From the IMG/VR virus record IMGVR_UViG_3300019487_000028, positions 2,834 to 66,833 of that record: DNA of 64,000 nucleotides; one strand, written 5' to 3'. The stretch is from a virus. Position 1 is the stretch's first letter. Every line of letters starts with the position of its first letter. The notes below the pieces were generated by a model. The model ran no database searches, was not told the DNA's origin, and saw only the letters and a list, made by a program, of their open reading frames with translations. Position numbers and translations under genes: made by a program. Positions 16,261 through 49,801 of this stretch are shown piece by piece.

Positions 16261-16512
16261 ATGTCTCACAGGACTGTGTCGTGGTCTGACCTGACTTCTG
16301 ATCAACGATCCCACCCAGAACGTACCAGGAGGAGGGTGCTCCGCTGCTTCTGCGGGGTGGCGACTGTTGGCCGCTGCGACCTGTGCGGGAAGCCGAGGTG
16401 CAGGATGTGCTCCAGCCGAGTCCGGGCCAGAGGGAAGCGCGGACGCGCTCACGTCAGGTGCGCCGTTCAGATAGGCGGGGTTCGGTCTCTGCACCAGATT
16501 ATCGGGGCGTAG
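16261..16512 (+). CDS. B-box-like zinc-finger hypothetical protein
   Basis: GAGG RBS; CFC..CDLC..CRMC. Confidence 0.45.
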   Translation: MSHRTVSWSDLTSDQRSHPERTRRRVLRCFCGVATVGRCDLCGKPRCRMCSSRVRARGKRGRAHVRCAVQIGGVRSLHQIIGA

Positions 16513-16578
16513 CGTAACGGCAGCGCGCGGGGCTTTGACCCCCGGCCAGTCCAGGTTCGACTCCTGGCGCCCCGGCCA
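16503..16578 (+). tRNA. tRNA-Gln(TTG)
   Basis: CGGGG-CTTTGAC-CCCCG; CCA. Confidence 0.9.
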
Positions 16579-16636: not shown

Positions 16637-19564
16637 CTAAGCCTGGCCGGGCACGATTTGGCCACCTTTGGAGAGCCCCGAGCGTCTCAGGTTCGCTATC
16701 AGTTCGCGTATCGTCTTCTGCACGATCGGATCGTTCTTGAGAGCCTCGAAAGCGTTCATGAAGGCTGATTCTGTCGCCGAGAGTCCGCGGCGCTTCGGGA
16801 GGTTCACGTCGGTATGTTCGGTCATTGGCTCGGCGATGATCTGCTTCCCTCTCTGGGTGAACAGTGTGGCCGGTCCAAAACTCTCTTTCCCTGGGAGACT
16901 GGTCCCGAAGTCGTGCGTCGCCTTCTGGTGTGCGAGTTCGTGGAGTAGGGTGTCCGCAACATATTCAGGAGTCCCTTCCCTGATCGACTTCGGCGAGAAG
17001 ACGATCGTGTCGGAGCGCCTGTCGTAATGAGGGACTGTGGAGTCGTTTTTCCCTATTCGTACCCTCGTCGGCTTCGTCTCTCCGAAGACGAACTTAAGCC
17101 TCGGGCGGATCCGGTTGAGCGCGATGTTGAGCATGTTGCTGAAGCGGTCGGCCTCAGTGCGCTCCCATTCGCCAACGAAAGTTCCAAGCCTCCTGTAGGA
17201 GGGCGGCGCCAGGTTCTCGAACTGCTCGCGCAGCGACTTGTACCTGGTGGCCTGCTCCATGACTTCCAGCAGCGCCTTCCGCTCCCAGGGCAGTCTGTTG
17301 TAATGCTTGAGGCTCATGTTCCAGTGAGGCTCAGGCCAGCCCATGAAGTATCCTGACCGCACGTTATTCCCCGCGGGATCGTAGATTCGTATGGTCCCGT
17401 ACCTGCGGACTCCCATGGCCGTCTCTTGGCCCTTCTTCACTCCGCCCACGATCCGGACTGTATAGCCGACAGGATCCGTGAAGGATGCCAGCAGTTTCTT
17501 CGGAGGAGTTTGGCCGTACGAAGCTCCTGGTGCTTGGTACTCTCCACCCTGGCGCCACGGCACCTTGTACACGGCCTCGACTGGAGACTCGTTCCATTTT
17601 GGGCGCGGAACCGTCACGTCTTCAACCAACGGAGACTTGCGCGGAGCGGCGAACAGACCCTCCGCGGCGGAGGCGCTCAGGGCTTTCTCTGGAGGTATCA
17701 GTTCTTTCCCGGCCCCGACCACCTGAGCTCCTGGCTTGGCAGCCTGCTCAGGGGTGATCTTAGCTAGCGGACGGTTCTTCTTCGCAGCCTCGATGGACGC
17801 CCGGAGCTGCGCTTCGAGGTCAACCTGCTCGCCCCCCTCAGCGGGGGCTGGACCTTTTGGGCGGGGCCGTCTCCTGGAGAGGGACTTGAGGAGGGGCGGG
17901 CCAGGCTTGGCTCCGGCCTCGACCTCGGCGAACTTGGCCTCTATAGAAGGAGGCGCCGTCCCCTCTCTGGTGGACGGGTACTTTCTCTCCAGGGCTAGTA
18001 TCGCCGCGCCACGACTCTTGGCTCCCTCAACGGCGGCGGCCTCTTTAGGGGTCACCCCGTGGATCCTGTACAGGGACCCGTCCGGCCTCTCCACTTCCAT
18101 GACCCTCTGCTCTGGGTCGTAGCCGTAGCTCCTGAACCCCTTGGAGGAGATGCCACTCCTCTCGACTGGGGTCAGGCCGGGGCGCTCCGGCAGGACCAGC
18201 CTACCTTTGGGTGACCTCTCCGTCCTGAAGAGGTCCATGATGCTTGGCTTCGGGCTCTCGCCCCTGCGAGTCGCAGCCGCCGCCCTTCCGAACATCTCCT
18301 CCATCGCCTTCCCTGGGGCGGCTGGGACAGATGGGGCCGGTTCGGGGAGCGCTGCCTTAGCCAGCGGTGGGGATAGAGACGGATTTACAACGCGCGGTGC
18401 GTCTCCGGTGGCTGGCCCTACGATCCCGCCACGCTCCAGTCGATCTAGCAGATCAGTGGCTTTGGAGAAGCCGATGCTGAACCGGCGCTGAAGCATGCCG
18501 CTCGTAGCTTGGCCCTCCCGTCTAACGAAACGTGCGGCCTCGTCAAACAGATCACCTCCGCGTGAGGCTGCGCCCGAGCGGGAGGTAGTCTCTTGGACCG
18601 GTGGTGCTCCCTCCCTGGCCGGCTTCCCTGTCGGCCTCATCGTTGGGGCGGTGTCCGTCCTGCGCGGTCTGGCCTGCATACCAGTCAATCCCTGGCGTTC
18701 TGCCTGCAGCGCCCTGCCTGCCCACACCTCAGCTTCGGCCCTTGTCATCTCCCCGAGCGGGCTCCTGGGCCCGAACCGAGCCCTCCCCGCCATGAACTCC
18801 TGGATGAGCCACTCGCGGGTTCCCGGATCGGGTACAGTAGGTTCTGCTTTCTTCGGTGAGAACAATTTGTAGAGTCGAGCTAGATACCCGACCTTGCCTG
18901 GGACAGCCTCAGCGATGTCTGGCACGGAAGCGCGCCCGGACCCAAGCTTGCCTCCTGCAATGCCGCCGATCAGTCCTCCAGCGACCGCTCCGGGAGTCCC
19001 GGCGACCCTCCCTCCGACGTCTGAACCGACCATTCCTCCGAGGGTGGCCGTAGCGCCGATCTTGGTCCCCCGGGCGAGCATAGGAAATACTCCGGTCGCT
19101 CCGGACCCGAGCCCAAAGCCTGGCGACGTGGCGATGACGTTAGTCCCGATGCGTCCGGCCAACTGTCCGGCCTCTTCACCACTGGTCGGTTCGGCCGCTT
19201 CTTCGGCGAGCCTCATAGCTGCTCCCGGCAGGCCACTCGCCAGTTGTGGGAACAACGTCCTGGCTATGTCAGGTCCGGCCGCCAGCACTCCCTTCGTCAG
19301 GCCACGAGCTGTCGGAGACGACAGTCCAACAGACTCCAGTGCTGACGTCCCCCCGGACGCCAGCTCTTCTGCTGCCGGGATTATGCTCCGCGCGGGCTTG
19401 GACCGCTCCGACGCACGACCAGCGGCGACGTCCGCCTGCTTGGTCACAACGTCTTTCAAATAGACGGAAGAGAAGATCCTCTCCAGTTCTCTCTGGGTCG
19501 GCGGAGTCGGCCCTGTGATCTCGATCGCTCTCCCGTCTGGAGATGTCACCTCGTAGGTTGGCAT
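16637..19564 (-). CDS. Large polyvalent putative ejection protein with FtsK-gamma, KTSC and zincin HExxH domains
   Basis: DLFDEAARFVRREGQATSGMLQRRFSIGFSKATDLLDRLERGGIVGP (FtsK gamma); SSKGFRSYGYDPEQRVMEV..G..Y..GV..AKSRG (KTSC); TLLHELAH. Confidence 0.75.
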   Translation of the reverse strand: MPTYEVTSPDGRAIEITGPTPPTQRELERIFSSVYLKDVVTKQADVAAGRASERSKPARSIIPAAEELASGGTSALESVGLSSPTARGLTKGVLAAGPDIARTLFPQLASGLPGAAMRLAEEAAEPTSGEEAGQLAGRIGTNVIATSPGFGLGSGATGVFPMLARGTKIGATATLGGMVGSDVGGRVAGTPGAVAGGLIGGIAGGKLGSGRASVPDIAEAVPGKVGYLARLYKLFSPKKAEPTVPDPGTREWLIQEFMAGRARFGPRSPLGEMTRAEAEVWAGRALQAERQGLTGMQARPRRTDTAPTMRPTGKPAREGAPPVQETTSRSGAASRGGDLFDEAARFVRREGQATSGMLQRRFSIGFSKATDLLDRLERGGIVGPATGDAPRVVNPSLSPPLAKAALPEPAPSVPAAPGKAMEEMFGRAAAATRRGESPKPSIMDLFRTERSPKGRLVLPERPGLTPVERSGISSKGFRSYGYDPEQRVMEVERPDGSLYRIHGVTPKEAAAVEGAKSRGAAILALERKYPSTREGTAPPSIEAKFAEVEAGAKPGPPLLKSLSRRRPRPKGPAPAEGGEQVDLEAQLRASIEAAKKNRPLAKITPEQAAKPGAQVVGAGKELIPPEKALSASAAEGLFAAPRKSPLVEDVTVPRPKWNESPVEAVYKVPWRQGGEYQAPGASYGQTPPKKLLASFTDPVGYTVRIVGGVKKGQETAMGVRRYGTIRIYDPAGNNVRSGYFMGWPEPHWNMSLKHYNRLPWERKALLEVMEQATRYKSLREQFENLAPPSYRRLGTFVGEWERTEADRFSNMLNIALNRIRPRLKFVFGETKPTRVRIGKNDSTVPHYDRRSDTIVFSPKSIREGTPEYVADTLLHELAHQKATHDFGTSLPGKESFGPATLFTQRGKQIIAEPMTEHTDVNLPKRRGLSATESAFMNAFEALKNDPIVQKTIRELIANLRRSGLSKGGQIVPGQA

Positions 19565-21115
19565 CTAGGGCTTCACCCTGACCTTGAATTGTCCTACTTC
19601 GTACAGCTCCCCTCTCGGGGTGACCGCCCCCGATGCTTCTGGCACCCTGACTTTGAACCTGCCGACCTCGAACGCCTCTGATTCAGGAAGGAGGTGGCTC
19701 ACGTCGATCCCGAGGTCTCCGAGCTTCTTGAGCGTGGACTTCTTCAGCAGAGGTTCCTTCGGTGGTCCTCCCATTACCCTCTCGTACTGGTTCTGGATGG
19801 CCTCGACCCTTCCGGCTAGAAGGTTGACCGCCTGCTGGATGGCGGCCCTGATCTGCGCCGGGGAGTTCGACGCGTCGAACACGGCCCTCCACTGCCTGAT
19901 CTCCTGGTCGGTCGCACCCATGCCCTTGAACACGGCCGCCAGTTCGCCCTCGACTCCAGTCGCGGCGGTCTTGAACGAGGCCAGCCTTGGGTCACCTGTG
20001 GTCTGGGCCAGGCCGACGTTCTTGATCCTGTTCAGGATCGGGACCGGGAAGTTCTCTAGTTCGTCCGACGCCTTCTTCAGGTCCGCGAGGTGCTTTACGG
20101 ACGTCTCCAGAGAGATGATGTTTCCTCCGGCCGTCCCCCTTCGGCTGGACTTCAGCTCCTTGAGGAATCCGGCCCTGGCCTGGTACTGGCTCATGTCGAA
20201 GCTCGGGTCGAACTGCTTCGTCATGTCGATGATGTGCTGCCTCTCTCCGGACCTGATCGACGCCACCTTCGCCGGGTCCAGGGTGTAGTCGGCTATGCCC
20301 TTCACCAGGTTCCTCTCGCTGATCGGGATGAGCCTCAGGAAGTCTTCTCCTGTGGGGACGTCCTGTCCCTCCGGGACCTGTGCGATGATCTTGTCCCAGG
20401 CGGCGGTGGCCAACTCCGTCCCCTTCTGGGGCTCTGGCTTCGGACCGAACCTCCCCGGGTCTGACGCGATCTGCTCATCCGTCCTGAGGACGGTCTCTCC
20501 AGTCTGCTTGTCCAGCACCGGCTTGAACGTCCCGACGCTAGGAGGCTTCCTGTACTTCGCCTCGATCCTGGCCCTCTCTTCCGCTACCTGCCCCTCCTGG
20601 AACAGCCTCTCCGCGAACGCCCTCGCGGCCTCGCGCTCGGTCGACACCCTGGCGGTGAGGGCCTCTTCGACCGGGCTCGCTTCCCTGGGCTGTATCCCGA
20701 ACTCCTCTACTCCTGGGATCTGGACCTTCGGGAGCGCTGGCAGCCCCAGTTCGGACGGGGGGCCTACCGGGGCCGGGAACTGCCTCTCCTTCGTCGCGGC
20801 CTCGACAAGTTCTTGCGGGGCCCTGGACAGCTCCCTCTCTCCTGTCGCCAGCGCCCCCTGGGTGGCCATCTCCAGGGCGTCCATCTTGGCCCCCAGCTTC
20901 ATCCCCCTGAGGCGGTGCTGGAGCGTCTCCATCTCCAGCTTCTTCTTCGCCTGGTCGAACTCACGGTCCTGCTTCTCCCTCTCCCGGTCTTCTTTCTCCT
21001 GCCTCGCCAAGAACACCGAGCCGAAGGCGTGGCTCAGCGCCCCACCGAGGGAGTCCCTCGGGTCTCGCTGGGTCCCGTAGGCTGCGAACGGGATGATGGG
21101 AGGACGAGTCGCCAT
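19565..21115 (-). CDS. Putative internal virion / ejection protein
   Basis: Helical and coiled-coil; position at the end of the virion operon. Confidence 0.55.
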   Translation of the reverse strand: MATRPPIIPFAAYGTQRDPRDSLGGALSHAFGSVFLARQEKEDREREKQDREFDQAKKKLEMETLQHRLRGMKLGAKMDALEMATQGALATGERELSRAPQELVEAATKERQFPAPVGPPSELGLPALPKVQIPGVEEFGIQPREASPVEEALTARVSTEREAARAFAERLFQEGQVAEERARIEAKYRKPPSVGTFKPVLDKQTGETVLRTDEQIASDPGRFGPKPEPQKGTELATAAWDKIIAQVPEGQDVPTGEDFLRLIPISERNLVKGIADYTLDPAKVASIRSGERQHIIDMTKQFDPSFDMSQYQARAGFLKELKSSRRGTAGGNIISLETSVKHLADLKKASDELENFPVPILNRIKNVGLAQTTGDPRLASFKTAATGVEGELAAVFKGMGATDQEIRQWRAVFDASNSPAQIRAAIQQAVNLLAGRVEAIQNQYERVMGGPPKEPLLKKSTLKKLGDLGIDVSHLLPESEAFEVGRFKVRVPEASGAVTPRGELYEVGQFKVRVKP

Positions 21116-29984: not shown

Positions 29985-31004
29985 TTACCAGTTTACACGC
30001 GGGTACGGCCACGGGAGCTGCACGATCGGCTTGCGGAACGGACGCGGCTTCGTCAGCCCGAAGTGCCCCACGCGAGCAGCAGTGGTCCGGCTCATCCTCC
30101 GGATGATCCTCGCCACCCCGGAATCGAACCTAGCCATGTAGTGGCCCGCCATCTTGAGGTTCTGCCCAGGACCTTCTCTCTTGAGCGCTTTCGACATCGC
30201 GTAGAACACGACGTAGCGGACGTAGTGGTCTGGCATCTCGAACTGCGCGGACCCGGGGTCGGTGCCCCTTCGGAATACCTCCACGCGCACGTTCTTTCCG
30301 TCCCTGTAGACCCTCCTGGGGGTTCCTCTCCCTGGACCGGCAGGGAAGTGCTCTGGAGCCTGCCTCAGACCTCCCCAGGACCCGAGCACCGGCTCACCGG
30401 AGCCGAACTCGTCTGAGGAGGCCCTCCTCAGGGTGCCGTATGTGCCGCTGTGCTCGAAGGTGTCGGCCCTACCGTCCGGGACGGGGACTTTCCTGATAAC
30501 GAACACTCCGTCCTCGTCCAGCACGTACGCGGTGGTCGGGCCGACCGTGTACAGGTACCTCCCGTCCGCCCGCTTGACTCTGGACGAGTGCACCGGACCG
30601 ATGAGGTAGTCGTCGTAGGTGACCCTGTCGACCTCCAGGAGAGAGTTCGGGAGCTCCGTCGCCGGAACGAACAAGTCGGTCTCGATGTGGTCTCGCTCCC
30701 ACGGGGAGGTGTGGTTCGCTGGTCCTGCCCCGTTCGAGTCGTAGTCGCGCTCCCACTCCCCTCCGGTGAAAGACAGGAGACCCTGGAACAAAACTGCGAA
30801 CGGCTCTTCGAACCGACCGGTGTGGTCGCCGGCGTACGGGAGGTTTTCTGAGTACGTCACGTCCCAGACGGCGCGAGTCCTGCGGCAGAGTTGATCGTAC
30901 CCGTCCCGGACGTAGCCCCCGACCTCAGCCCTGCTGGTCCACACCTCCTGGGCCTCGTCCTCCAGCTGCCTGAAGGTCTTGTCCGTGGCAGTATCTAGGT
31001 TCAT
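29985..31004 (-). CDS. Head-tail adaptor-like protein
   Basis: W..AEVGGYVRDGYDQLCRRT..MPDHYVRYVVFYAMSKAL adaptor-like pattern. Confidence 0.55.
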   Translation of the reverse strand: MNLDTATDKTFRQLEDEAQEVWTSRAEVGGYVRDGYDQLCRRTRAVWDVTYSENLPYAGDHTGRFEEPFAVLFQGLLSFTGGEWERDYDSNGAGPANHTSPWERDHIETDLFVPATELPNSLLEVDRVTYDDYLIGPVHSSRVKRADGRYLYTVGPTTAYVLDEDGVFVIRKVPVPDGRADTFEHSGTYGTLRRASSDEFGSGEPVLGSWGGLRQAPEHFPAGPGRGTPRRVYRDGKNVRVEVFRRGTDPGSAQFEMPDHYVRYVVFYAMSKALKREGPGQNLKMAGHYMARFDSGVARIIRRMSRTTAARVGHFGLTKPRPFRKPIVQLPWPYPRVNW

Positions 31005-31645
31005 CTCGTACCGAAGTGCCCCCTCATCGGTATCTGGGTCCTGTTGGCGACCCTCTTGTCTAGTTCCCTAGACATCTTCTCGAACTCGGAGAAGTGCTCC
31101 AGGGCCTTGGCAGTCTCGTCGTCCCTGGCTAGAAGGTCGTAGACCGCGTACTCCACAAGGGTCCTGTGGTACTCCTCCGGGAGCTGCCTCGGCCTCTCGG
31201 TCTCGTCGGTCATGTGTGGGTGGAGGGCTTTGCCCTTGAGATGAAGGACGCTGTCCTGGGACCTAGACCTCGGGTATATCCCGAGCCACCATAGGCCGCG
31301 CATGAACCACTGGTCCGGTTCTCCGTCGTTGCGGATCCACTGACGGGACGTGAAATCGTCCAGGTCGCGCACGTTCGTGGCGTCTATCCATCGGCTCCTG
31401 GCGGGGTTGTATATGCTGGAGACACGCAGGAACGGCTCGTCTCCTACTGTCCGTACGTCGTGGTAGACCGCCCTGGCCCTGAGCGTGAAGACCGCCGTCC
31501 GCTCGTAGAACTCCGTGGCGTCCGACAGCTCGTCGAGTCCGTCGTTGATGCTGTCCCTCGCGTCAGACCTGGACCACCTGCTAGGCGAGCCGGTCTCCTC
31601 CTCGATGCGCGTCAGCACATCGTCTATGATCTCGCCGAGAGTCAC
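31001..31645 (-). CDS. Head-tail adaptor / tail tubular A-like protein
   Basis: MTLGEIIDDV..WS..D..DSINDG..LPEEYHRTLVEYAVY. Confidence 0.6.
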   Translation of the reverse strand: MTLGEIIDDVLTRIEEETGSPSRWSRSDARDSINDGLDELSDATEFYERTAVFTLRARAVYHDVRTVGDEPFLRVSSIYNPARSRWIDATNVRDLDDFTSRQWIRNDGEPDQWFMRGLWWLGIYPRSRSQDSVLHLKGKALHPHMTDETERPRQLPEEYHRTLVEYAVYDLLARDDETAKALEHFSEFEKMSRELDKRVANRTQIPMRGHFGTR

Positions 31646-31981: not shown

Positions 31982-32713
31982 TTACCTCTTGTCGCCCGCG
32001 TCCTCAACCCTGATGAACGAGCCCTCGGCTCCGTCCCTGTGCTTGGTGAACGTGTCCACAGTCACTACTAGCGGGTCCGCCTCGTGCCCGCACATAATTC
32101 CGGTGTCGACGTACGGGGGGAACCCGGCCTTGGCCGCCGAGATGCAGAAGGACAGGTCTTCGCTGTACTTCCCGTACTGGAACGGGCCTCCGGCCTCCTT
32201 GACCTCCGGGAGGTCGGACACCGCCCTCAGCATCTTCAGGGAGGTGGCGCAGAACCCGAACCCGACCCCTCCGACCAGAACCAGGGAGTTCTCGGACCAC
32301 GTCCTGGCCCAGTGGAACGCCTCTCCGTCGAACTTCCCGAAGAGCGGGTGGTGCGGCGGCCTCCTCTGGAAGTAGACCCCAGACACGAAGTCCAGCGCTT
32401 TACCTAACGGGCACGTGTCCTGAGACAGGTACGCCGCGAGCCTGGCTATCGCCTGCTTCGGGACCACCACGTCGTCGTCAACCCACACGACGGCGTCCGG
32501 GGAGTCTTCAGACATGAGGGCTGTCTTGACGACCATGTTTCGGGCAGCGGCGTAGCCGAGTCGGTCCGGGCACGCCGCGCCAACCCACTCGTGCCCGCTG
32601 TTCGCTGCGTGCATGACGGCCGCGAGGAGGTAGTTCGCCGGGGTGGTCGGTATCGGTCCGTAGGACGGCCTGGCCAGTACCAACCTCACGCTTCGCCCCT
32701 GTACCTTAGCCAC
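31982..32713 (-). CDS. GT-A fold glycosyltransferase (GT2-like)
   Basis: YAAARN, VWVDDDV (DxD), GFGF and SEDLSFC..A..AGF..YVDT..CGH. Confidence 0.85.
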   Translation of the reverse strand: MAKVQGRSVRLVLARPSYGPIPTTPANYLLAAVMHAANSGHEWVGAACPDRLGYAAARNMVVKTALMSEDSPDAVVWVDDDVVVPKQAIARLAAYLSQDTCPLGKALDFVSGVYFQRRPPHHPLFGKFDGEAFHWARTWSENSLVLVGGVGFGFCATSLKMLRAVSDLPEVKEAGGPFQYGKYSEDLSFCISAAKAGFPPYVDTGIMCGHEADPLVVTVDTFTKHRDGAEGSFIRVEDAGDKR

Positions 32714-33013: not shown

Positions 33014-33895
33014 TCACACCCTCGTGCACTTCGCGCAGGCTCCGTAAGTGTCCGCTCGGTTGTTGAAGTGGTCTTCCCTAAACTTGGAGTACTTCTCGGA
33101 CGAGTAGACGTCTCGGAGGCTCTGCGCCTTCAGGTCTCCGAACCCGTCCGGGTGTCCGGTCGCTTCTCGGGCGAAGTTTCCCAGCGGGTCTAGGCAGCAC
33201 ATCGTCACGATTCCGTCGAACGTGACGTATATCTGCCCCAGGGCTCGTCCGCACGCCTCGGCGTAGTCCACCGTCCTCTCGTTCTCGTTCTCCCCGGCCC
33301 AGTTGGACTCCAGGACTACCTGCCCGTAGCCACCTCCGCTGCGGTGACCCCACCGGTAGTAGAAGCTTCGCATGTCGTCGCTGGTGAAGTTGGTCCCGTC
33401 CATCACGGCCTTGACCTGGATTTGTGGGTGTCCCCTCCTCGGGGTTGACCCTATCGCGTCCTCTATGTTGCGCACTACTCTGTCGAACACCTTGGGCGAA
33501 ACGCCCATGATCTTCGCGTGCTGGTCCGCCCGGACCGCGTTGAGGCTGACGCTGACGCACGACACTCCAGCCTCCGAGGTCTCTAAGAACTTTTTCCTGG
33601 TAAGGGAGAACCCGTTGGTGTAGTAGTCGATGAACCAGTCCGGCCTCTTCTCCCTGGCGTACTTGATCCTCTTGGGGAGCATGGCGTCGAGCAGGGTCTC
33701 CCCTAGCCCCGTGATGCAGAGCTGGTCTATCTTGTCGGACCCGGCGGCCTCGTCGACGATCTTCGTGTACAGTTCCCACGACATGATCCCGGCCGGCCTC
33801 CCGTGGACTTCGTAGTAGGACCTGTCCGTGAGCGGGCAGAAAGTGCACGCAGCGTTGCACCTGCCGCCGACATTTTCCAGTTGGAGGTGGATCAC
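33014..33895 (-). CDS. Radical SAM / SPASM-twitch domain protein
   Basis: CNAACTFC (CxxxCxxC), GLGETLL, and C-terminal C..DG.V..CC.D..CAKC. Confidence 0.9.
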   Translation of the reverse strand: MIHLQLENVGGRCNAACTFCPLTDRSYYEVHGRPAGIMSWELYTKIVDEAAGSDKIDQLCITGLGETLLDAMLPKRIKYAREKRPDWFIDYYTNGFSLTRKKFLETSEAGVSCVSVSLNAVRADQHAKIMGVSPKVFDRVVRNIEDAIGSTPRRGHPQIQVKAVMDGTNFTSDDMRSFYYRWGHRSGGGYGQVVLESNWAGENENERTVDYAEACGRALGQIYVTFDGIVTMCCLDPLGNFAREATGHPDGFGDLKAQSLRDVYSSEKYSKFREDHFNNRADTYGACAKCTRV

Positions 33896-34416
33896 CTCGT
33901 CAGCCTCGCCGGCTTGACCGCCCTGAGACCGAACTCCAGGAAGTCGTCTCCCTCTTTCACGTGCTCAGCGACGAAGTCCCCCTTCCACAAGTGCCTGAAG
34001 TCTGACATCGGGGTAACCCCGACCTCCGAGTACTTCGACTGGTCTAGGAACGTCATTGACCCGGACGTGATGACACGCTTGTGGCTGGGGTCTCCCCACG
34101 CCCACATGCTCTTGTAGCTCGGGCAGGTGCCTACCAAGACCCCGCCGCTCTTGAGAATCCGCCATATCTCGTAGAAGTGGGAGAAGAAAGATACCTCGTC
34201 TCCCTGCCTCCCGAGGTGCTCCAGGATCTCGAACGCCCCGACCACGTCGAAGCTGTACGACTCCAGGGGCCACGGGGTCTTCTCCATGTCCCACACGACG
34301 TCTGGGTTGTGAGCCGGGTTCACGTCGAGCCTGACCAGCTCGTCTGGCTCAGCCAGTCCGACCGGGTAGAGCGGGAACCCAATCCTAGACCCGGCCCCGA
34401 CGAGCAGACCCCTCAC
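33892..34416 (-). CDS. Class I SAM-dependent methyltransferase
   Basis: LLVGAG, D/N at strand 2, FEILEHL, EIWRILKSGG, DPSH. Confidence 0.85.
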   Translation of the reverse strand: MRGLLVGAGSRIGFPLYPVGLAEPDELVRLDVNPAHNPDVVWDMEKTPWPLESYSFDVVGAFEILEHLGRQGDEVSFFSHFYEIWRILKSGGVLVGTCPSYKSMWAWGDPSHKRVITSGSMTFLDQSKYSEVGVTPMSDFRHLWKGDFVAEHVKEGDDFLEFGLRAVKPARLTR

Positions 34417-36046: not shown

Positions 36047-37105
36047 CTACGAGGACACGGTCAGGTCGATGTTCCCGGCCACGCCCTGCTTCCTGCGGTT
36101 CGAAACCCAGTGCACGCCGTACCAGAGGATCTGGGCCGTGCGCGCGTCCTGGTTCTCCGGCCGGATGAACGGCCCCGGGGCGAAGTTGTGCTCTTTGTCG
36201 AAGGTCACTCCCAAGAACTGCGTGTTGAGCATGAACCACGAGCCCTTGGTGACGGTCGTGGAGCCGTTCTGCACGTCCACGGTGAACTCCTCGGCCACGA
36301 CCGGCTTGCCCTTGAAGAGCAGGCTCTGGAACGGGATGTCGGCCTTCTGGTAGTCCGGGTTGCGGTGCGAGGCCGCGAGGGCGGTCTCGTACAGGTCGAA
36401 GGTGCCCAGGTCGACGATGTGGGCGTCGGGAGACCCTCCCGGGCCCTTGGAGCACTGCGTGTACAGCTCGCGCAGCTGCTTCAGGATGGCCGCGAACGAG
36501 GCGCCGTTGGCGTTCTTGGTCTGGTTCCTCCACCAGGTGTTGGTGTTCTGGTTGATGCTGCCGATGACGGTCGAGGTGGTCGGGGCGAACTTGATCAGCA
36601 GTGGCAGCGGGTCGATGAACACGCTGGCGTTCAGGGGCGAGACGTAGGCGGACGTGACGGACGTGGTGTCGTTCTTGCCCTGGCCCCTCATCAAGGTCTG
36701 GGCGAAGAAGTCCTCGATCCCCAGGAGGGCCTGCTTGGTGCGGAGCTTGAGCAGGTCGAGGACCCTGGTCCCCTGGGCGTCGCGGTTCTGGAACTCCTCC
36801 AGCCCAGAGATGGTCACGTGGCTGGCGGTCTGGCGCCAGTCGAAGAAGGCGTCGGTCACGCCCTCGAACGGCGTGGTGTCGAGCTGGGAGTAGCCGGCGT
36901 AGGAGTCCGAGGCCACGAGCTCGTACATCAGCGGAACGGCGTACTTGGCCCCACCGGAGCTGACGCCCTTCCAGTTGCCCTTCTTCTTGTAGAAGTACAG
37001 CAGCTTGGTCCCGGTGCTGATCTGGTCCTCGATACCCGGACGGATGAGGTCGAGGGTGGTCGTCAGGACCGAATCGTAGATCCGGGTGAGTGTCGTTGCA
37101 GGCAT
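36047..37105 (-). CDS. Major capsid protein
   Basis: 352 aa downstream of the scaffold; HK97-like features (..Y.GY..LDT.P., LLK.R..QA, ENQDA..AQILWYG...SNR). Confidence 0.85.
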   Translation of the reverse strand: MPATTLTRIYDSVLTTTLDLIRPGIEDQISTGTKLLYFYKKKGNWKGVSSGGAKYAVPLMYELVASDSYAGYSQLDTTPFEGVTDAFFDWRQTASHVTISGLEEFQNRDAQGTRVLDLLKLRTKQALLGIEDFFAQTLMRGQGKNDTTSVTSAYVSPLNASVFIDPLPLLIKFAPTTSTVIGSINQNTNTWWRNQTKNANGASFAAILKQLRELYTQCSKGPGGSPDAHIVDLGTFDLYETALAASHRNPDYQKADIPFQSLLFKGKPVVAEEFTVDVQNGSTTVTKGSWFMLNTQFLGVTFDKEHNFAPGPFIRPENQDARTAQILWYGVHWVSNRRKQGVAGNIDLTVSS

Positions 37106-40310: not shown

Positions 40311-42290
40311 TCACTGCTGAGGGGGAGCCGCCGCGGGTTGGACGATGGGGCCAGGCTGCGGTTGGGCTTGGTCTGGAGTCGGCGCCCCCGGCCCTGCCGG
40401 GGCGGCTGCGAACTGTGGGCCTCCTGGCCCCGGCTGCTGGGCCTGGGACGGGTTCGGCATCGAACCGGGGACCTGCATGTTCGCCGCGGCGACAAGGCCC
40501 AGGGCCTCCTGGACCATCTTGTGGTCGGCCGAAGACCTGAACCCGAACGTGTCCAGAGCCCTCTTGAGCAGGGTCGGAGCCTTGGCCAGGAGCATCGCCG
40601 CGGCCGGCTGGGAGATCATGGTTATGAGCTGACTCATCTCGGCCCGAGCCTCTTGCTCCGTCACTGGAGACATGGTCTCGATGTCCACCGCTACGTCCCA
40701 GCGGAGCGTGCGGTCGGCCTCCATCAGGTCATCCAGGGTTATCTCCCTGTGCAGCTCGGCTATCTTCTCTGCGTCCCTGGGTGCGCTTGGCGAGTGGAGG
40801 TCTACGTTACGCTTGACCCACATGGGGAGGGTCATCTTGTCTATGGCCAAGTTCATCAGCGCCTTGATGGCGGAGCCGAGCCACTCGGCCACCAGCATCC
40901 GGGCGAAGCTCTCCGTGATCGTCTGCCTCCTGTCCACGATGGCGGCCTGCGTGGCGGTGTCAGACTCGGCCTGCCCGCGAGACTCCCCGGACACGTGGCT
41001 GACCTGGAGCAGGTCCTCTTTCGCGACGGCCAGGGTCCTGACGACCGCCGAGTCGACCAACGGCTGCTGGAGAGGGACCACCACCCCGGTCGGGTCTCCC
41101 TCCACCACGGCATAGACGTTCGGCCCTCCCATCTCCAGCTTCTCGCGCTCCTCCGTCTTCAGCCTGTCGCTGACCAGGTGGCGGGGGTAGACGGTCTTCC
41201 TGAGCCCGCGGAGCATCTCTCTGCTGTCGTTGTACTCGTCCTGCGGGAAGAGCATCGAGTAGATCGGGGGTATCGGGTAGAACTCGTCGGGGTCCTCTTC
41301 TAGCCTGAGGACGTGGAGCAGCATGACGCGGTACTTCTTCTTCAGCAGGAAGTAGTCGTGACCGTCCGCGAGCACGTACCTGGTGTTGTCCCGGAGGCTC
41401 CACACCTTCCAAATTTTCACCATGCCGGACCGCTCGTGCCTGTCCGAGTCCTCGTCCTCCACCGCGTCGAGGTCGTCCGGAGTCGTGGTCGTCTTCGTCA
41501 GAGACGAGTACTCGTTGGCCAGCTTCCCGGACGACTTCAGGCTGGAGGTCCTCCTGTAAGCCGGGGCCTTCTTCACGTCCTCGACGTACATCCACTCGTA
41601 GTAGCCTACCCAGTCGTTGTGTTCCAGCGTCGGATTGCTGTTGACCGAGCACCGGAACGTCTGGGGCGGGATCCTCTTGACGTAGAAGTGCTCTTCTGAC
41701 ACCAGCTTCTCCAGCGAGCTGATGTCGTCGGCGACCTCGTCTAGGTCAGCCGGCTCGTCCTCTGGGGCGAGCTTGGCCGTGCTGCTGCCGAGGTCTTCCT
41801 TGGCCTTCTCGTCCTCGTACAGAGGGGGCCTCTTGAAGGCCGGGTTGTCCGAGAAGACGGCGCTGTACCCGGTCTCCACCACCCCGAAGGCCCAGAAGGC
41901 GTCCTTCATCGCCAGTCGGGTCTGGAACTTGAAGTCGGTCCTCTTGTCCCTGACGATGGTGTTCGCGGTGTCCTGGAGGAGCTGCTTCTTCTCGTCCAGG
42001 GTCGAGTCAGCGGTCTCGCTGATGGCCGGTGACGCGCTGATCCGCACGAAGGGGTGGTTGAAGTACATGCTCGGGATCTGCACCCCTACCGAGGGCTTGA
42101 TGAGGTTGACCACGGCGCGCTCCTCGTCGTGGGCGTCGAGTCGGTCCTCCCCCACCCTCTGGTGTCCCTTCCAGTAGCGCTTGCAGCGAGCGATCTTGTA
42201 GTCCTTGGCCCAGGCGTTGTAAGCCTTTTCGGCCTGGTCGATCCTCTCTCGCCAGCGCTTGACGGCTTTCTTCTCGGACTCTTTGGCCAC
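40311..42290 (-). CDS. Portal protein
   Basis: 659 aa after the terminase; W..RI..A, SGESRG...TATQA.I; Q/P-rich tail. Confidence 0.85.
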   Translation of the reverse strand: MAKESEKKAVKRWRERIDQAEKAYNAWAKDYKIARCKRYWKGHQRVGEDRLDAHDEERAVVNLIKPSVGVQIPSMYFNHPFVRISASPAISETADSTLDEKKQLLQDTANTIVRDKRTDFKFQTRLAMKDAFWAFGVVETGYSAVFSDNPAFKRPPLYEDEKAKEDLGSSTAKLAPEDEPADLDEVADDISSLEKLVSEEHFYVKRIPPQTFRCSVNSNPTLEHNDWVGYYEWMYVEDVKKAPAYRRTSSLKSSGKLANEYSSLTKTTTTPDDLDAVEDEDSDRHERSGMVKIWKVWSLRDNTRYVLADGHDYFLLKKKYRVMLLHVLRLEEDPDEFYPIPPIYSMLFPQDEYNDSREMLRGLRKTVYPRHLVSDRLKTEEREKLEMGGPNVYAVVEGDPTGVVVPLQQPLVDSAVVRTLAVAKEDLLQVSHVSGESRGQAESDTATQAAIVDRRQTITESFARMLVAEWLGSAIKALMNLAIDKMTLPMWVKRNVDLHSPSAPRDAEKIAELHREITLDDLMEADRTLRWDVAVDIETMSPVTEQEARAEMSQLITMISQPAAAMLLAKAPTLLKRALDTFGFRSSADHKMVQEALGLVAAANMQVPGSMPNPSQAQQPGPGGPQFAAAPAGPGAPTPDQAQPQPGPIVQPAAAPPQQ

Positions 42291-42704: not shown

Positions 42705-45170
42705 CTACTCCGTTGTCGCGGCCCTCCTCCGCCGCTTGCGGTTCGCCTCCTTGGCGAGCTTGGCGTACCCGGCCCACGTCAGGGTCCCCGGCTTGTCCTT
42801 CGGCGGGACGAACGCGACGGGCCGGCTGTTGGATATGTATCGGACGCAGTTGTGAGAGGCCAGCCCCTCGGCCATGAACGTTCGAGTGGAAGTCTTGATC
42901 GCGACCACGTCTACGACTCCGATGTACTCGTTCCTCACGACGCTCACTCGGTCCTGACCCCAGACCTGGAATCTCCCCACGTTCAGGTCCAATTTTTCCA
43001 AGAGCCTGCGAGGTCGCACTTCTCCAAGGAAACGCAGGCGTTCGCCCAGAGTTCCGGCTAGCACCACTGTACACACGCCAGGCTGGCTGCTCGTGTGTCT
43101 ATACAGAGAATGCTGGAATCCGAGCGCTCTCAGCGCAGACATGGTGTCCTCAAGAGCAGAGTTGTCTTTCTGTGACATGGAGATGTTCCGTATCCCCCTG
43201 TATTTCAGCTTGCCTTGAGACAGACTACCTTCTCCGTCGAACATCCCAGCTAAGTAACCGTGAGAGCGAGTGTCACCCTCTTTCCAGACGGACAGAGGCT
43301 TGAGTAGGAGCCTCTCGACGGAAGTAGCTCCTCTCGGGACCCCAGGCTCCCAATGTCCCCTTCCGTCAAGAGAAGCTGTGGACACCCACTTCCTCTTGCA
43401 TGAAGTAGCACTGGGAAGGTCTGACAACCACCTGTGGTCGTGTGACGACACGACAACAGTCCCGTCGGAGAGCGTCGTCCTGTACGAGGGCTTCTTCGTG
43501 AACTCTACGGACTCGACGAGAGCAGGACGCCAGTGTCTTGGACTCAGCGTCCCGTCACCAAACTCATCGAAACCGACGAGTGTGTCCCCAACTTTCACTT
43601 CGTCTGCCCTGATCCACCGCAGGTCCCCCCGGAGTATCTTCGTCTCTGGGGCGACGCAATCTAAAGCGTGGTCTGGAACGCTGTCGTCGCGCTCGTCGCT
43701 GAACACCGGCTTCCCGTTGACGGTGCCCACCTGGACCCTCCTGGCCGACTTCACTTCCAGCAGCGCGTCGAAGCACCCCTCCTGGTAGTCTTGGGTCTTC
43801 TTCACGAAGTACATCCTCGGGGCGCCCTTCTCCCTGGTGATCGGGTGGGAGTGTCCAGGGTCGACCAGGAGCATGTCCTTGATCCTCTGCCTGGAGACCT
43901 GCTCGTTGTTGTCGGCGCCCTCCCACGAGACCCTGTCCCACGCCGGGTAGTTCCTCGAGTCGACCCACTCCTCGGCCACGGACCACCTGTTCGACACTAC
44001 CCGGCCTCCGATCTTTTGCGGGACCTTGTAGAAGATGCTCGGGTCGGCCAGGTTCCGGTAGTGCGTCAGCTCGAACTTGTCTGGCTCCCTCGGGAGGGAG
44101 CCGTCGTAGCTCTTTGAGTCCTTGACCGACATCTTCCACACGTTGGCCCTGGTGTCCCTGATGGTCTGGTCCTCCAAGTAGAGCTCACGGTAGAAGATCA
44201 CGTTGCCGCCGCCGTCGACCGCCGCCCACAGCACGCACGTGACCCCGGAGTCGCCGTGGTCAAGCACGCGGTAGAGCTTGCACGTCTCGCGCAGCTTCTT
44301 CATCAACTCTTCGGAGTACTCCAGCACTGACGACGGGTGCACCCGGAAGAACACCCCCTCCGGGTTGCCCCACTCTCCGCGGACGTAGCGGGCCTGGTAC
44401 GTGTCGTCCTTGGACTGGAGGATCCTGAGGTTCTCCTCGCTCAAGAACTTGTTCTTCCGCGAGTCGAACGTGATCATCTTGTAGCCGCTGCCCTTCCACT
44501 TCGACTGCCACTCTTCCGACTCAGGGTGGAAGCGGTTCCACAGCCAGTGCGTCTCGAGGTCTGGGTTGCACGTGAGCAGCATGAAGCTAGGCGTGGACAG
44601 TTTCCCGTTCCGGAACTTGTACGGCCACTCAGTCCCGGTCGACTCCTCGTGGACCCGCACCACCTCCGAGGGGACGGAGGCGCTCTTCCACCGCCCTATC
44701 CTGGAGTGGAGGGTGTCGTATATCTCCTCGGCGGTCTCCTCGGCCTGGTCGATCAGGGCCGCGTTGATCTCGAGTCCCCGCAGGATGGAGATGGCGTCCA
44801 CGCGGTTGAGGTGGAGGAACACGAACCGCGAGCCGTTGGTGAGGGTGACTACAGCCGCGCCGCCGCCCTCGTTCTTCTGGGCTATGGCCTCTGGGGGGCA
44901 GAGCGTGTAGAAGGTCTGGAGCGTGGTCTCCTTGAGCTCGCTCCAGAACCTCCTGGCGATGGCGACCCTGTACCCTGGGTAGAGCTGCGCGAGGCACAGC
45001 AGCTTGAAGATGGCGACGGCGGTCTTCCCGCTGCCGTAGCCTCCAGACAGCAGGAGTGGAGCGGGGCCGTAGTTGAACGCCTCCTCTTGCTCCCCACCCT
45101 CAAACTTCTCGTTGGGTGGGGTGGCCCACTCCCACTGAGCGGTGTCTTGCCCCTGGCTCTCGTACGGCAA
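42705..45170 (-). CDS. terL: Terminase large subunit with intein
   Basis: Walker A GGYGSGKT; Walker B IDQAEE; LLTCNP; nuclease LDHG and DHALDC.RY. Confidence 0.9.
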   Translation of the reverse strand: MPYESQGQDTAQWEWATPPNEKFEGGEQEEAFNYGPAPLLLSGGYGSGKTAVAIFKLLCLAQLYPGYRVAIARRFWSELKETTLQTFYTLCPPEAIAQKNEGGGAAVVTLTNGSRFVFLHLNRVDAISILRGLEINAALIDQAEETAEEIYDTLHSRIGRWKSASVPSEVVRVHEESTGTEWPYKFRNGKLSTPSFMLLTCNPDLETHWLWNRFHPESEEWQSKWKGSGYKMITFDSRKNKFLSEENLRILQSKDDTYQARYVRGEWGNPEGVFFRVHPSSVLEYSEELMKKLRETCKLYRVLDHGDSGVTCVLWAAVDGGGNVIFYRELYLEDQTIRDTRANVWKMSVKDSKSYDGSLPREPDKFELTHYRNLADPSIFYKVPQKIGGRVVSNRWSVAEEWVDSRNYPAWDRVSWEGADNNEQVSRQRIKDMLLVDPGHSHPITREKGAPRMYFVKKTQDYQEGCFDALLEVKSARRVQVGTVNGKPVFSDERDDSVPDHALDCVAPETKILRGDLRWIRADEVKVGDTLVGFDEFGDGTLSPRHWRPALVESVEFTKKPSYRTTLSDGTVVVSSHDHRWLSDLPSATSCKRKWVSTASLDGRGHWEPGVPRGATSVERLLLKPLSVWKEGDTRSHGYLAGMFDGEGSLSQGKLKYRGIRNISMSQKDNSALEDTMSALRALGFQHSLYRHTSSQPGVCTVVLAGTLGERLRFLGEVRPRRLLEKLDLNVGRFQVWGQDRVSVVRNEYIGVVDVVAIKTSTRTFMAEGLASHNCVRYISNSRPVAFVPPKDKPGTLTWAGYAKLAKEANRKRRRRAATTE
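42849..43658 (-). mobile_element. Intein (270 aa) with LAGLIDADG homing endonuclease
   Basis: Starts CVAPETKIL, ends LASHN followed by Cys+1; internal GYLAGMFDGEGS. Confidence 0.9.
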
Positions 45171-49411: not shown

Positions 49412-49801
49412 TCAGTACGCCTCCGTGCAGTAGATTACGACACCCCTGGCCGCCGTGCCCGTCGTGATAAAGTTGAGTTGCTCTCCGGATGACGTCAGGC
49501 AGAACGGGTACCTCTCCCCCATAGTCCACGTGAGGTGGGCGTCTTTCCCAAGGTGCGCAGTCCCGGAGATGTTGGTTCCTGGAGGACTGCCCGAAGTAAA
49601 GCGCCAAGTCATGCTCTTCCCGTCCTCGGTCGAAATGTAGAACCCGATCACCTTGTGGATCTGTCCCGACTCCGCAGCAGCGACCACCACGGTCCCTGGG
49701 GACGACTGGCTCAACACGAACCGCCTAGAGAGGGTGGTTGTCGAGAACGTGGACGTCGCTGGCATCAGCTGAACTCCAAGAAGTCCAACGAGGCTGAGCA
49801 C
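49412..49801 (-). CDS. Small beta-sandwich structural protein
   Basis: Operon context; the start is uncertain. Confidence 0.45.
   Translation of the reverse strand: MLSLVGLLGVQLMPATSTFSTTTLSRRFVLSQSSPGTVVVAAAESGQIHKVIGFYISTEDGKSMTWRFTSGSPPGTNISGTAHLGKDAHLTWTMGERYPFCLTSSGEQLNFITTGTAARGVVIYCTEAY

What the first reader, a model, noticed from the sequence alone, without database searches (positions are those of the whole stretch)
16637..19564. Putative ejection protein fusing FtsK-gamma, KTSC and a zincin peptidase
Seen: a close match to the FtsK gamma winged helix (about 18390-18555), a KTSC-like module (about 17975-18150) and HELAH (about 16930) in a 975-aa protein at the end of the virion operon. 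Established: FtsK gamma reads KOPS motifs to orient DNA translocation; KTSC binds nucleic acid; phage polyvalent proteins deliver mixed anti-host domains. Inference: an injected protein that binds polar motifs to steer genome entry, or competes with host FtsK.
Basis: partly seen in the sequence, partly recalled or inferred. Interest (0 to 1): 0.7.

Follow-up and report, generated by a model that had tools for sequence, protein, structure and literature searches.

The report
Small polyvalent phage virion-module protein
The last gene of this uncultured phage's particle-building operon encodes a 975-residue string of modules (a DNA-binding winged helix borrowed from FtsK, a KTSC domain, an unnamed module and a Wss1/SprT-like zinc protease), a new example of the already described "polyvalent" proteins that phages are thought to inject with their DNA, not a device for reading polar DNA motifs.

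Summary
An intact 975-aa ORF (16637-19564, minus strand) ends the virion operon.

**Domains**
- FtsK_gamma, aa 338-393: Pfam E 6e-17.
- KTSC, aa 473-519: just above Pfam's cut-off.
- HELAH, aa 875-879: inside a domain whose predicted fold is closest to the Wss1 and SPRTN proteases (Z 6.7-7.5, moderate).
It is absent from Pfam and PHROGs and has no structural match. Elsewhere it is fused to MuF, ADP-ribosyltransferase, GNAT, InPase and DUF2213 domains.

**Relatives**
- A positional orthologue from another metagenome (P0014, 1253 aa) keeps the KTSC block and the zincin. It lacks the FtsK-gamma domain and the unnamed module and carries other parts instead.
- This swapping is the hallmark of polyvalent proteins. 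Iyer et al. 2017 (PMC5512222) already list the FtsK winged helix and zincin peptidases among their domains.

**The KOPS-reader or FtsK-decoy idea is not supported**
- The three KOPS-reading residues are changed to S, D and D.
- There is no motor domain.
- GGGNAGGG occurs 12 times on one strand and 8 on the other.

**Best reading:** a capsid-carried, co-ejected protein whose DNA-binding domains tether an ArdC-like protease to the entering DNA. Packaging and activity are inferred, not shown.

**Verdict:** a new member of a known kind, of modest interest.

The parts
16637..19564 (-). Whole gene, 975 aa (P0001); last gene of the virion operon
   Evidence: 100% identical single copy in the 76.3-kb IMG/VR record
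19460..19564 (-). N-terminal motif aa 1-35 (MP..V..PDG..I.....PPT..E.E.I); a similar motif opens P0028
   Evidence: read directly from the sequences printed; no statistics
18920..19303 (-). Gly/Ala-rich, moderately hydrophobic glycine-zipper-like segment aa 88-215 (24% G, 16% A; peak Kyte-Doolittle 1.2 at aa 187-205)
   Evidence: comparable G/A-rich stretches in P0014, P0028 and P0037
18386..18553 (-). FtsK-gamma-type winged helix aa 338-393; recognition helix GFSKATDLLDRLE
   Evidence: Pfam E 6.1e-17; PDB 2ve8 E 1.2e-6; only copy in the genome; absent from orthologue P0014
17900..18367 (-). Conserved KTSC-core block aa 400-555 (Pfam KTSC aa 473-519 = nt 18008-18148); the part shared by all four positional relatives
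   Evidence: E 7e-43 to P0014, 4e-28 to P0028, 8e-24 to P0037
17195..17617 (-). Unnamed module aa ~650-790 (core 685-785; LASYTDxDGYT ... RYG ... GYWMNWPE ... EVKQQATAY)
   Evidence: about 35 of the 150 best exhaustive-search hits; alignment A3; AF2 pLDDT 85, core above 94; no Pfam or PHROG family; no structural match
16670..17164 (-). Zincin-like domain aa 801-965 with H875-E876-L-A-H879, H884-D885 and E932xxF; HELAH = nt 16928-16942
   Evidence: 42% identity to P0014 with HELAH conserved; Pfam SprT-like E 0.0018; AF2 model; best structural matches Wss1 and SPRTN
19565..21115 (-). Upstream 516-aa gene of no known family; its stop abuts the start of the target (context)
   Evidence: a gene of like size (484 aa) precedes P0014
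21119..22123 (-). 334-aa gene with Gly-rich hydrophobic stretches, no known family (context)
   Evidence: a 335-aa gene stands in the same place in the P0014 contig
16503..16578 (+). tRNA-Gln, first gene of the converging plus-strand tRNA block; marks the end of the virion operon

Best explanation
P0001 is a small polyvalent protein of a tailed phage. It has an N-terminal carrier part (a short N-terminal motif plus a glycine-zipper-like hydrophobic segment) followed by four modules on Pro/Ala-rich linkers: an FtsK-gamma winged helix, a KTSC block, an unnamed ~100-aa module and a Wss1/SprT/ArdC-like HExxH zincin. I infer that it is made late, packed into the head with the other end-of-operon proteins, and leaves with the DNA at infection. 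Inside the cell the winged helix, and perhaps KTSC, would hold it on double-stranded DNA without reading KOPS. The zincin would then cut the polypeptide at its linkers to free the modules, or, like ArdC and SPRTN, cut host proteins sitting on the incoming DNA. Shown here: the ORF, the domains, the operon position and the module swapping among relatives. Inferred: packaging, ejection, DNA binding and protease activity.
For: Domains. Operon position and coupling. Positional relatives at the end of co-directional gene blocks share the KTSC block but differ in the other modules: P0014, P0028 and P0037. The unnamed module is fused elsewhere to Phage_Mu_F, ADP-ribosyltransferase exoenzyme, GNAT, InPase and DUF2213. 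In IMG/VR locus L011 it forms the C-terminus of a weakly MuF-like protein (Pfam below cut-off) between portal and DUF2213 genes, the slot where phage-delivered cargo domains sit (PMC5512222). [quoted passage not shown] Its best matches are Wss1 5xbn (Z 7.5, rmsd 3.2, 104 aligned), Wss1 5ln5 (Z 7.1) and SPRTN 6mdx (Z 6.7), followed mainly by other zincins. ArdC's protease domain has the same nearest structures, Spartan Z 6.4 and IrrE Z 5.5 (PMC7213743). Iyer et al. list the FtsK wHTH as a rare dsDNA-binding domain of polyvalent proteins and zincin peptidases as their commonest domain. In phage SU10, whose adaptor family matches two genes here, the last five genes of the virion operon (gp20-24) are ejection proteins by mass spectrometry (PMC9509320).
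Against: There is no direct evidence of packaging or ejection; the phage is known only from a metagenome. None of its structural proteins, including this one, shows BLAST similarity to SU10 proteins, so the SU10 parallel is positional only. The zincin call rests on sub-threshold sequence scores (Pfam 18.5 bits against 25.6; proabylysin E 0.039), a medium-confidence model built from two sequences (pLDDT 67) and Z-scores below 8, which the tool warns can be common. The possible third His (H884) lies 5 residues after H879, against 6 in P0014, so metal binding may differ. Only one module is a predicted enzyme, which is fewer than in typical polyvalent proteins. The hydrophobic segment is too weak for a classical membrane helix.
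Confidence: 0.6

Rival explanations
1. One reading: the gamma domain reads polar KOPS-like octamers on phage or host DNA, and so orients genome entry or competes with host FtsK.
For: A genuine FtsK_gamma domain is present. Gamma domains of FtsK do read KOPS (PMC2533119, PMC2680272).
Against: The equivalents of N1296, R1300 and E1303 are S, D and D. Asp at the Arg position is rare, 4 of 218. The protein has no translocase motor. GGGNAGGG is 12 against 8 and GGGCAGGG 4 against 2 on the two strands, and the most skewed octamers are tRNA T-arm and repeat words. The orthologue P0014 does without the domain. The host and its KOPS are unknown, so a different motif cannot be excluded.
Confidence: 0.05
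2. It is not packaged. It is a late cytoplasmic protein: a DNA-bound maturation or assembly protease, or a factor that acts on host or phage DNA during packaging.
For: Late-operon position alone does not prove packaging. DNA binding plus a protease could serve head maturation. No separate prohead protease was identified in the ORFs I scanned.
Against: The gene lies at the far end of the operon, after the adaptor and tail-like genes, not in the head-morphogenesis block. Its unnamed module recurs as MuF C-terminal cargo. Module swapping between orthologues fits conflict cargo better than a conserved assembly enzyme.
Confidence: 0.2
3. The isolated gamma domain acts on the host Xer machinery, activating or sequestering XerD, as FtsK gamma does at dif.
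For: FtsK gamma contacts XerD (PDB 5dcf, listed).
Against: From my memory of the E. coli sequence, which I did not check with a tool, the XerD-contacting stretch (TEKRKA) aligns to RREGQA here. I noticed no integrase or lysogeny gene in the ORFs scanned, but made no systematic search. The domain is dispensable in P0014.
Confidence: 0.03
4. The HExxH domain is not a peptidase but an alpha-ketoglutarate-dependent HExxH oxygenase or an inactive scaffold.
For: NCBIfam mod_HExxH E 0.0033 over 31 residues. The top Foldseek row is the ChlB HExxH oxygenase 8s5f, E 0.12. The third-ligand spacing is unusual.
Against: The NCBIfam score is 17.4 bits against a cut-off of 40. The 8s5f alignments have rmsd about 14 A, while Wss1 and SPRTN align at about 3 A over about 100 residues. 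Most other matches are zincin peptidases.
Confidence: 0.07

Closest known systems
Polyvalent proteins of phages and conjugative elements (Iyer, Burroughs, Anand, de Souza, Aravind 2017, J Bacteriol, PMC5512222)
   Same: Several unrelated modules in one polypeptide. Encoded with virion genes. A zincin-like peptidase as hub. A DNA-binding domain, with the FtsK wHTH explicitly listed there as a rare example. Modules swapped between relatives.
   Different: Small (975 aa) and with only one predicted enzyme. It has a KTSC-centred conserved core, and the paper's text holds no mention of KTSC. It has an unnamed module absent from Pfam, which holds the LPD families I recall. No ArdC-N, methylase-helicase or ART domain was detected.
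ArdC of plasmid R388 (PMC7213743)
   Same: A DNA-binding domain joined to a small HExxH metalloprotease whose nearest structures are Spartan and IrrE. It acts in the recipient cell on entry of foreign DNA.
   Different: ArdC binds ssDNA through the ArdC-N domain and is a 297-aa plasmid protein expressed in the recipient. Here the binder is a dsDNA-type winged helix in a virion-operon protein. No sequence similarity to ArdC was detected.
Wss1 / SPRTN (SprT-like, PF10263) DNA-protein-crosslink proteases
   Same: Best structural matches (Z 6.7-7.5), weak Pfam SprT-like hit, an HExxH followed by a nearby His, and association with DNA-binding parts.
   Different: Below Pfam's cut-off. The His spacing is 5 rather than 6. 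There is no SPRTN zinc-binding subdomain. The context is a phage virion module.
SU10 (Kuravirus) ejection proteins gp20-24, especially gp24 (1473 aa) (PMC9509320; KM044272)
   Same: Same position: the last, largest gene of a virion operon that follows adaptor, nozzle and fibre genes and ends against a convergent block. Neighbour gene sizes are similar (334 and 516 aa here, 322 and 551 aa in SU10).
   Different: No detectable sequence similarity. SU10 gp24 has no Pfam domain.
FtsK gamma domain (PF09397; PDB 2ve8, 2j5p)
   Same: Clear sequence membership of the winged-helix family.
   Different: Detached from any motor. KOPS-reading residues replaced (S, D, D).

Membership tests
Polyvalent proteins (Iyer et al. 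2017) | Two or more domains of unrelated biochemical kind in one polypeptide | tested here: met
   wHTH, KTSC, unnamed module and zincin
Polyvalent proteins (Iyer et al. 2017) | Encoded among virion or late genes, or conjugation genes | tested here: met
   Last gene of the terminase-portal-capsid-adaptor block; relatives stand likewise
Polyvalent proteins (Iyer et al. 2017) | Variable domain make-up among relatives on a conserved carrier | tested here: met
   P0014 is colinear but lacks the gamma domain and the unnamed module and adds about 390 C-terminal residues; P0028 and P0037 share only the KTSC block
Polyvalent proteins (Iyer et al. 2017) | Carried in the particle and delivered with the DNA | not testable with these tools
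   Needs virion proteomics; the phage is known only from a metagenome
FtsK_gamma (PF09397) | Profile score over the curated cut-off | tested here: met
   61.5 bits against 30.6; 66.9 bits in the genome search
FtsK_gamma as KOPS reader | N1296, R1300, E1303-type recognition residues | tested here: not met
   S, D, D by alignment to 2ve8 and to cellular FtsK C-termini
FtsK_gamma as KOPS reader | Attached to an FtsK/SpoIIIE alpha-beta motor | tested here: not met
   No FtsK_SpoIIIE or FtsK_alpha hit in the protein
KTSC (PF13619) | Profile score over the curated cut-off | tested here: met
   27.4 bits against 25; relatives score 46-50 bits; PDB 7x8c E 0.012
SprT-like / Wss1 zincins (PF10263, WLM) | Profile score over the curated cut-off | tested here: not met
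   18.5 bits against 25.6, E 0.0018
SprT-like / Wss1 zincins (PF10263, WLM) | HExxH on the active-site helix after a three-stranded sheet | tested here: met
   H875-E876-x-x-H879 conserved in P0014; AF2 topology
SprT-like / Wss1 zincins (PF10263, WLM) | Fold match to solved members | tested here: inconclusive
   5xbn Z 7.5, 5ln5 Z 7.1, 6mdx Z 6.7 are the top three of 48,161 chains but all under Z 8; model pLDDT 67
SprT-like / Wss1 zincins (PF10263, WLM) | Third metal ligand | tested here: inconclusive
   Candidates are H884 (5 after H879; 6 in P0014) and E932 in an ExxF motif on the next confident helix; model coordinates could not be inspected
SU10-type ejection proteins | Sequence similarity to gp20-24 | tested here: not met
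   BLAST E above 0.07; no tblastn hit

The most novel reading that the evidence does not exclude
The protein is a phage counterpart of ArdC. It would be a DNA-tethered Wss1/SprT-like protease that rides in with the genome on a dsDNA-binding FtsK-gamma winged helix and destroys host proteins, such as restriction or nucleoid-associated defence proteins, as they engage the entering DNA. The unnamed ~100-aa module, shared with MuF cargo slots, would be a second effector with a fold not yet solved.
Probability: 0.2. Interest if true: 0.6.

Novelty: new member of a known kind. Interest (0 to 1): 0.3.

Why it matters
This is a compact, tractable example (975 aa, four modules) of a class of phage proteins that is widespread but almost untested experimentally. 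If the zincin proves to be a DNA-dependent protease delivered with the genome, that would extend the ArdC and SPRTN principle to phage entry. The unnamed module is widespread in metagenomes as a stand-alone gene and as cargo on MuF, ART and GNAT proteins, and has no family name or structural relative, so it is a small addition to the catalogue of virion-delivered domains. The finding does not open a new kind of system. The attractive idea of a phage reading KOPS-like polarity signals is not borne out.

Tried and rejected
- **Full-length relatives.** The word-indexed search found only the protein itself and cellular FtsK gamma tails. A search restricted to aa 790-975 found only itself.
- **GenBank phage records.** There is no DNA match. 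The protein gives matches to the gamma domain only. The unnamed module and the zincin give no match.
- **IMG/VR scan with the zincin alignment.** Nothing. The narrower alignment A5 found one locus.
- **Structural identification of the unnamed module.** Foldseek PDB best E 0.043 with TM below 0.3. VIA wide best Z 4.0. ESM Atlas TM at or below 0.41. BFVD best E 0.083. The atlas feature search gave no usable hit. These blanks do not prove a new fold.
- **Pfam and PHROGs on all 30 members of the module alignment.** No recurrent family.
- **Homology of neighbours and target to SU10 gp22, gp23 and gp24.** None.
- **Strand-polar octamers.** No KOPS or SRS polarity. The skewed words are tRNA T-arm and repeat related.
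- **Promoter and terminator scan around the gene.** Nothing beyond chance.
- **Contexts of the closest stand-alone gamma proteins (P0090, P0068).** The contigs are too short to tell.
- **A possible ART in the C-terminus of P0014.** My impression came from an R ... S-T-S-like motif. Pfam and a PDB sequence search are silent, so I dropped it.
- **A paper for PDB entry 7x8c (KTSC).** None in the library.
Full report
**1. What is there**

The window lies in a 76,323-base IMG/VR virus record that CheckV rates 81% complete. A previous note of this scan says it comes from a cave metagenome. From about 45.2 kb down to 16.6 kb the minus strand carries a virion block:
- large terminase, 42705-45170;
- portal, 40311-42290;
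- major head protein, 36047-37105, phrog_9953 E 9e-39;
- two genes matching Pfam SU10_adaptor, 31001-31645 (E 1.2e-16) and 29985-31004 (E 3e-5, just below the cut-off);
- seven larger ORFs without any family.

The last ORF is the target, 16637-19564, 975 aa. Its ATG directly follows the TAG of the preceding 516-aa gene. Downstream it runs head-on into plus-strand tRNA genes.

**2. The domains**

Pfam places FtsK_gamma at aa 338-393 (E 6.1e-17, 61.5 bits, cut-off 30.6). It places KTSC at aa 473-519 (27.4 bits, cut-off 25) and gives a sub-threshold SprT-like hit at aa 834-887 (E 0.0018). The PDB sequence search independently finds FtsK gamma (2ve8, E 1.2e-6) and a KTSC protein (7x8c, E 0.012). 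HELAH is at aa 875-879, nt 16928-16942.

The exhaustive HMMER search of 1.84 billion representatives added two things.
- About 35 of the best 150 hits match only aa ~650-790. This is a ~100-aa module with strongly conserved motifs (LASYTDxDGYT, RYG, GYWMNWPE, EVKQQATAY; alignments A3 and A5).
- One protein, P0014 (1253 aa, E 1e-59), is colinear with the target.

**3. The zincin**

The region aa 801-965 is 42% identical to P0014, with HELAH and the following H-[DE]-F-G conserved.

An AlphaFold2 model from this two-sequence alignment has medium confidence: pLDDT 67 overall, 77-94 in the core and about 40 in a loop at aa ~886-928. [quoted passage not shown] This is the layout given for the zincin peptidases of polyvalent proteins (PMC5512222).

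Foldseek gave only weak rows (best E 0.12), but most of them are zincins: abylysin, selecase, BepA, IrrE/PprI and M1 aminopeptidases.

The Foldseek-independent search ranked these highest among 48,161 chains:

| Chain | Protein | Z | rmsd (A) | Residues aligned |
|---|---|---|---|---|
| 5xbn | Wss1, S. cerevisiae | 7.5 | 3.2 | 104 |
| 5ln5 | Wss1, S. pombe | 7.1 | 2.8 | 96 |
| 6mdx | SPRTN | 6.7 | 2.9 | 95 |

Other zincins follow. These Z-scores are under the level at which the tool advises trust.

Several lines nevertheless agree: the HExxH motif, the Pfam SprT-like hit, a profile hit to proabylysin (E 0.039) and the nature of the top matches. Together they make a Wss1/SprT-like zincin the best reading.

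The third metal ligand is unsettled. H884 is 5 residues after H879, against 6 in P0014, which reads HELAHSKGAVHE. E932, in an ExxF motif, lies on the next confident helix. ArdC's protease domain has the same nearest structural neighbours, Spartan and IrrE (PMC7213743).

**4. The unnamed module**

With 30 sequences the model of aa 645-800 is confident: pLDDT 85, and above 94 over the core. It shows a five-stranded meander followed by helices.
- It has no convincing match in PDB, BFVD or the ESM Atlas.
- No member hits a recurrent Pfam or PHROG family.

Its partners in other proteins are informative: Phage_Mu_F, ADP-ribosyltransferase exoenzyme, GNAT acetyltransferase, InPase and DUF2213.
- In IMG/VR locus L011 it is the C-terminal end of a 442-aa protein with a weak MuF hit (E 0.0016, below cut-off). 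That gene lies between a portal gene (E 3e-104) and a DUF2213 gene.
- P0034, which carries InPase plus this module, lies near a 1092-aa portal gene.

The C-terminal slot of MuF proteins is where phage-delivered cargo domains are found (PMC5512222). So this module belongs to the repertoire of domains that travel with virion proteins. Its function is unknown.

**5. Relatives and modularity**

P0014 stands in a 13.7-kb contig after genes of 333, 147, 335 and 484 aa, and before a convergent block. The target stands after genes of 323, 334 and 516 aa.
- The two proteins align colinearly (aa 135-964 against 92-865, 31.5% identity without composition correction). The strong blocks are the KTSC region (E 7e-43) and the zincin (E 3e-31).
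- The gamma domain is a clean ~65-aa insertion in the target, between a shared TDTAPTxRPTG stretch and the KTSC block.
- The unnamed module is replaced in P0014 by unrelated sequence, and P0014 has about 390 more residues at its C-terminus.

P0028 (746 aa) is the last gene of a co-directional block in an 84.5-kb contig. P0037 (1023 aa) is followed by an M15 peptidase gene. Both share only the KTSC block, aa 400-555. All four proteins have a Gly/Ala-rich stretch. P0028 opens with a motif like the target's (MP..V..PDG ... PPT..E).

This gives a small family of end-of-operon proteins with a KTSC-centred core and exchangeable additions.

**6. The KOPS idea**

In E. coli FtsK, N1296, R1300 and E1303 read KOPS, and their triple mutation abolishes recognition (PMC2533119).
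- In the P. aeruginosa sequence these are the N, the second R and the E of GYNRAARMIE. The target has GFSKATDLLD at these positions, that is S, D and D.
- Among 218 gamma domains collected from the hits, the Arg position is R in 119, K in 24 and D in only 4.
- The protein has no FtsK motor.
- The whole genome has 12 and 8 GGGNAGGG on its two strands, and no skewed octamer other than tRNA and repeat words.
- Similar gamma domains occur with Mrr nuclease, AAA ATPase, DnaJ, DUF4236 and TrmB parts.
- Iyer et al. already record the FtsK wHTH as an infrequent dsDNA-binding domain of polyvalent proteins.

A motif of unknown sequence in an unknown host cannot be excluded, but nothing points to one.

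**7. Mechanism, with what is shown and what is inferred**

Shown:
- an intact gene at the end of the virion operon;
- four recognisable modules on Pro/Ala-rich linkers (18% P in aa 394-472; 19% A and 13% P in aa 520-650);
- module exchange among positional relatives.

Inferred from the families:
- The protein is packed in the head and released with the DNA. Supporting this, the five end-of-operon proteins of SU10 are ejection proteins (PMC9509320), but SU10 shares only the adaptor family with this phage and no BLAST similarity.
- The winged helix keeps the protein on dsDNA.
- The zincin either frees the modules by cutting the linkers, or removes host proteins from the entering DNA as proposed for ArdC.

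I put 0.6 on this overall picture and about 0.2 on the specific ArdC-like anti-defence role.

**8. Novelty**

This is a new member of a known kind. Earlier notes of this scan describe several larger polyvalent ejection proteins in other genomes. Two of them have a Gly-zipper N-terminus and an FtsK-gamma-like winged helix. Those notes are unchecked and I did not test them, but they agree that this layout recurs. What is particular here is the small size, the KTSC-centred core and the unnamed module.

Noticed in passing
window 33014-33895 (-), 33892-34416 (-), 31982-32713 (-): A radical SAM/SPASM gene (Pfam E 2.8e-14 and 1.4e-10), a methyltransferase-like gene and a glycosyltransferase-like gene (phrog_12406, E 1.7e-6) sit inside the virion block, between the major head protein and the adaptor genes. 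This is an unusual place for a peptide- or sugar-modifying trio.
   Followed up: no
window 31001-31645 (-) and 29985-31004 (-): Two adjacent genes both match Pfam SU10_adaptor (E 1.2e-16 and 3e-5). This may be a duplicated or extended adaptor.
   Followed up: no
window 42705-45170 (-): The large terminase ORF is 821 aa as listed, with terminase matches only in aa ~24-511. Either the listed TTG start is too far upstream, or there is an extra C-terminal part of about 300 aa.
   Followed up: no
window 49765-51045 (-): A 426-aa ORF upstream of the terminase matches phrog_1645 'virion structural protein' very strongly (E 2.8e-90), outside the main structural block.
   Followed up: no
P0014 aa 866-1253 (Logan SRR30312860 contig, no DNA held): The orthologue carries about 390 extra C-terminal residues with no Pfam or PDB sequence match. 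An R...STS-like motif made me think of an ADP-ribosyltransferase, but nothing confirms it.
   Followed up: partly
L004 2164-3537 (+) and 8008-11286 (+): In the contig of P0034, a bacterial-type topoisomerase IB gene lies directly upstream of the InPase-bearing polyvalent protein, and the portal gene is unusually long at 1092 aa.
   Followed up: no
P0023 (204 aa), P0025 (234 aa): Some proteins consist of two or three tandem FtsK-gamma domains with no motor. P0023's recognition helices share the target's Asp at the Arg position.
   Followed up: no
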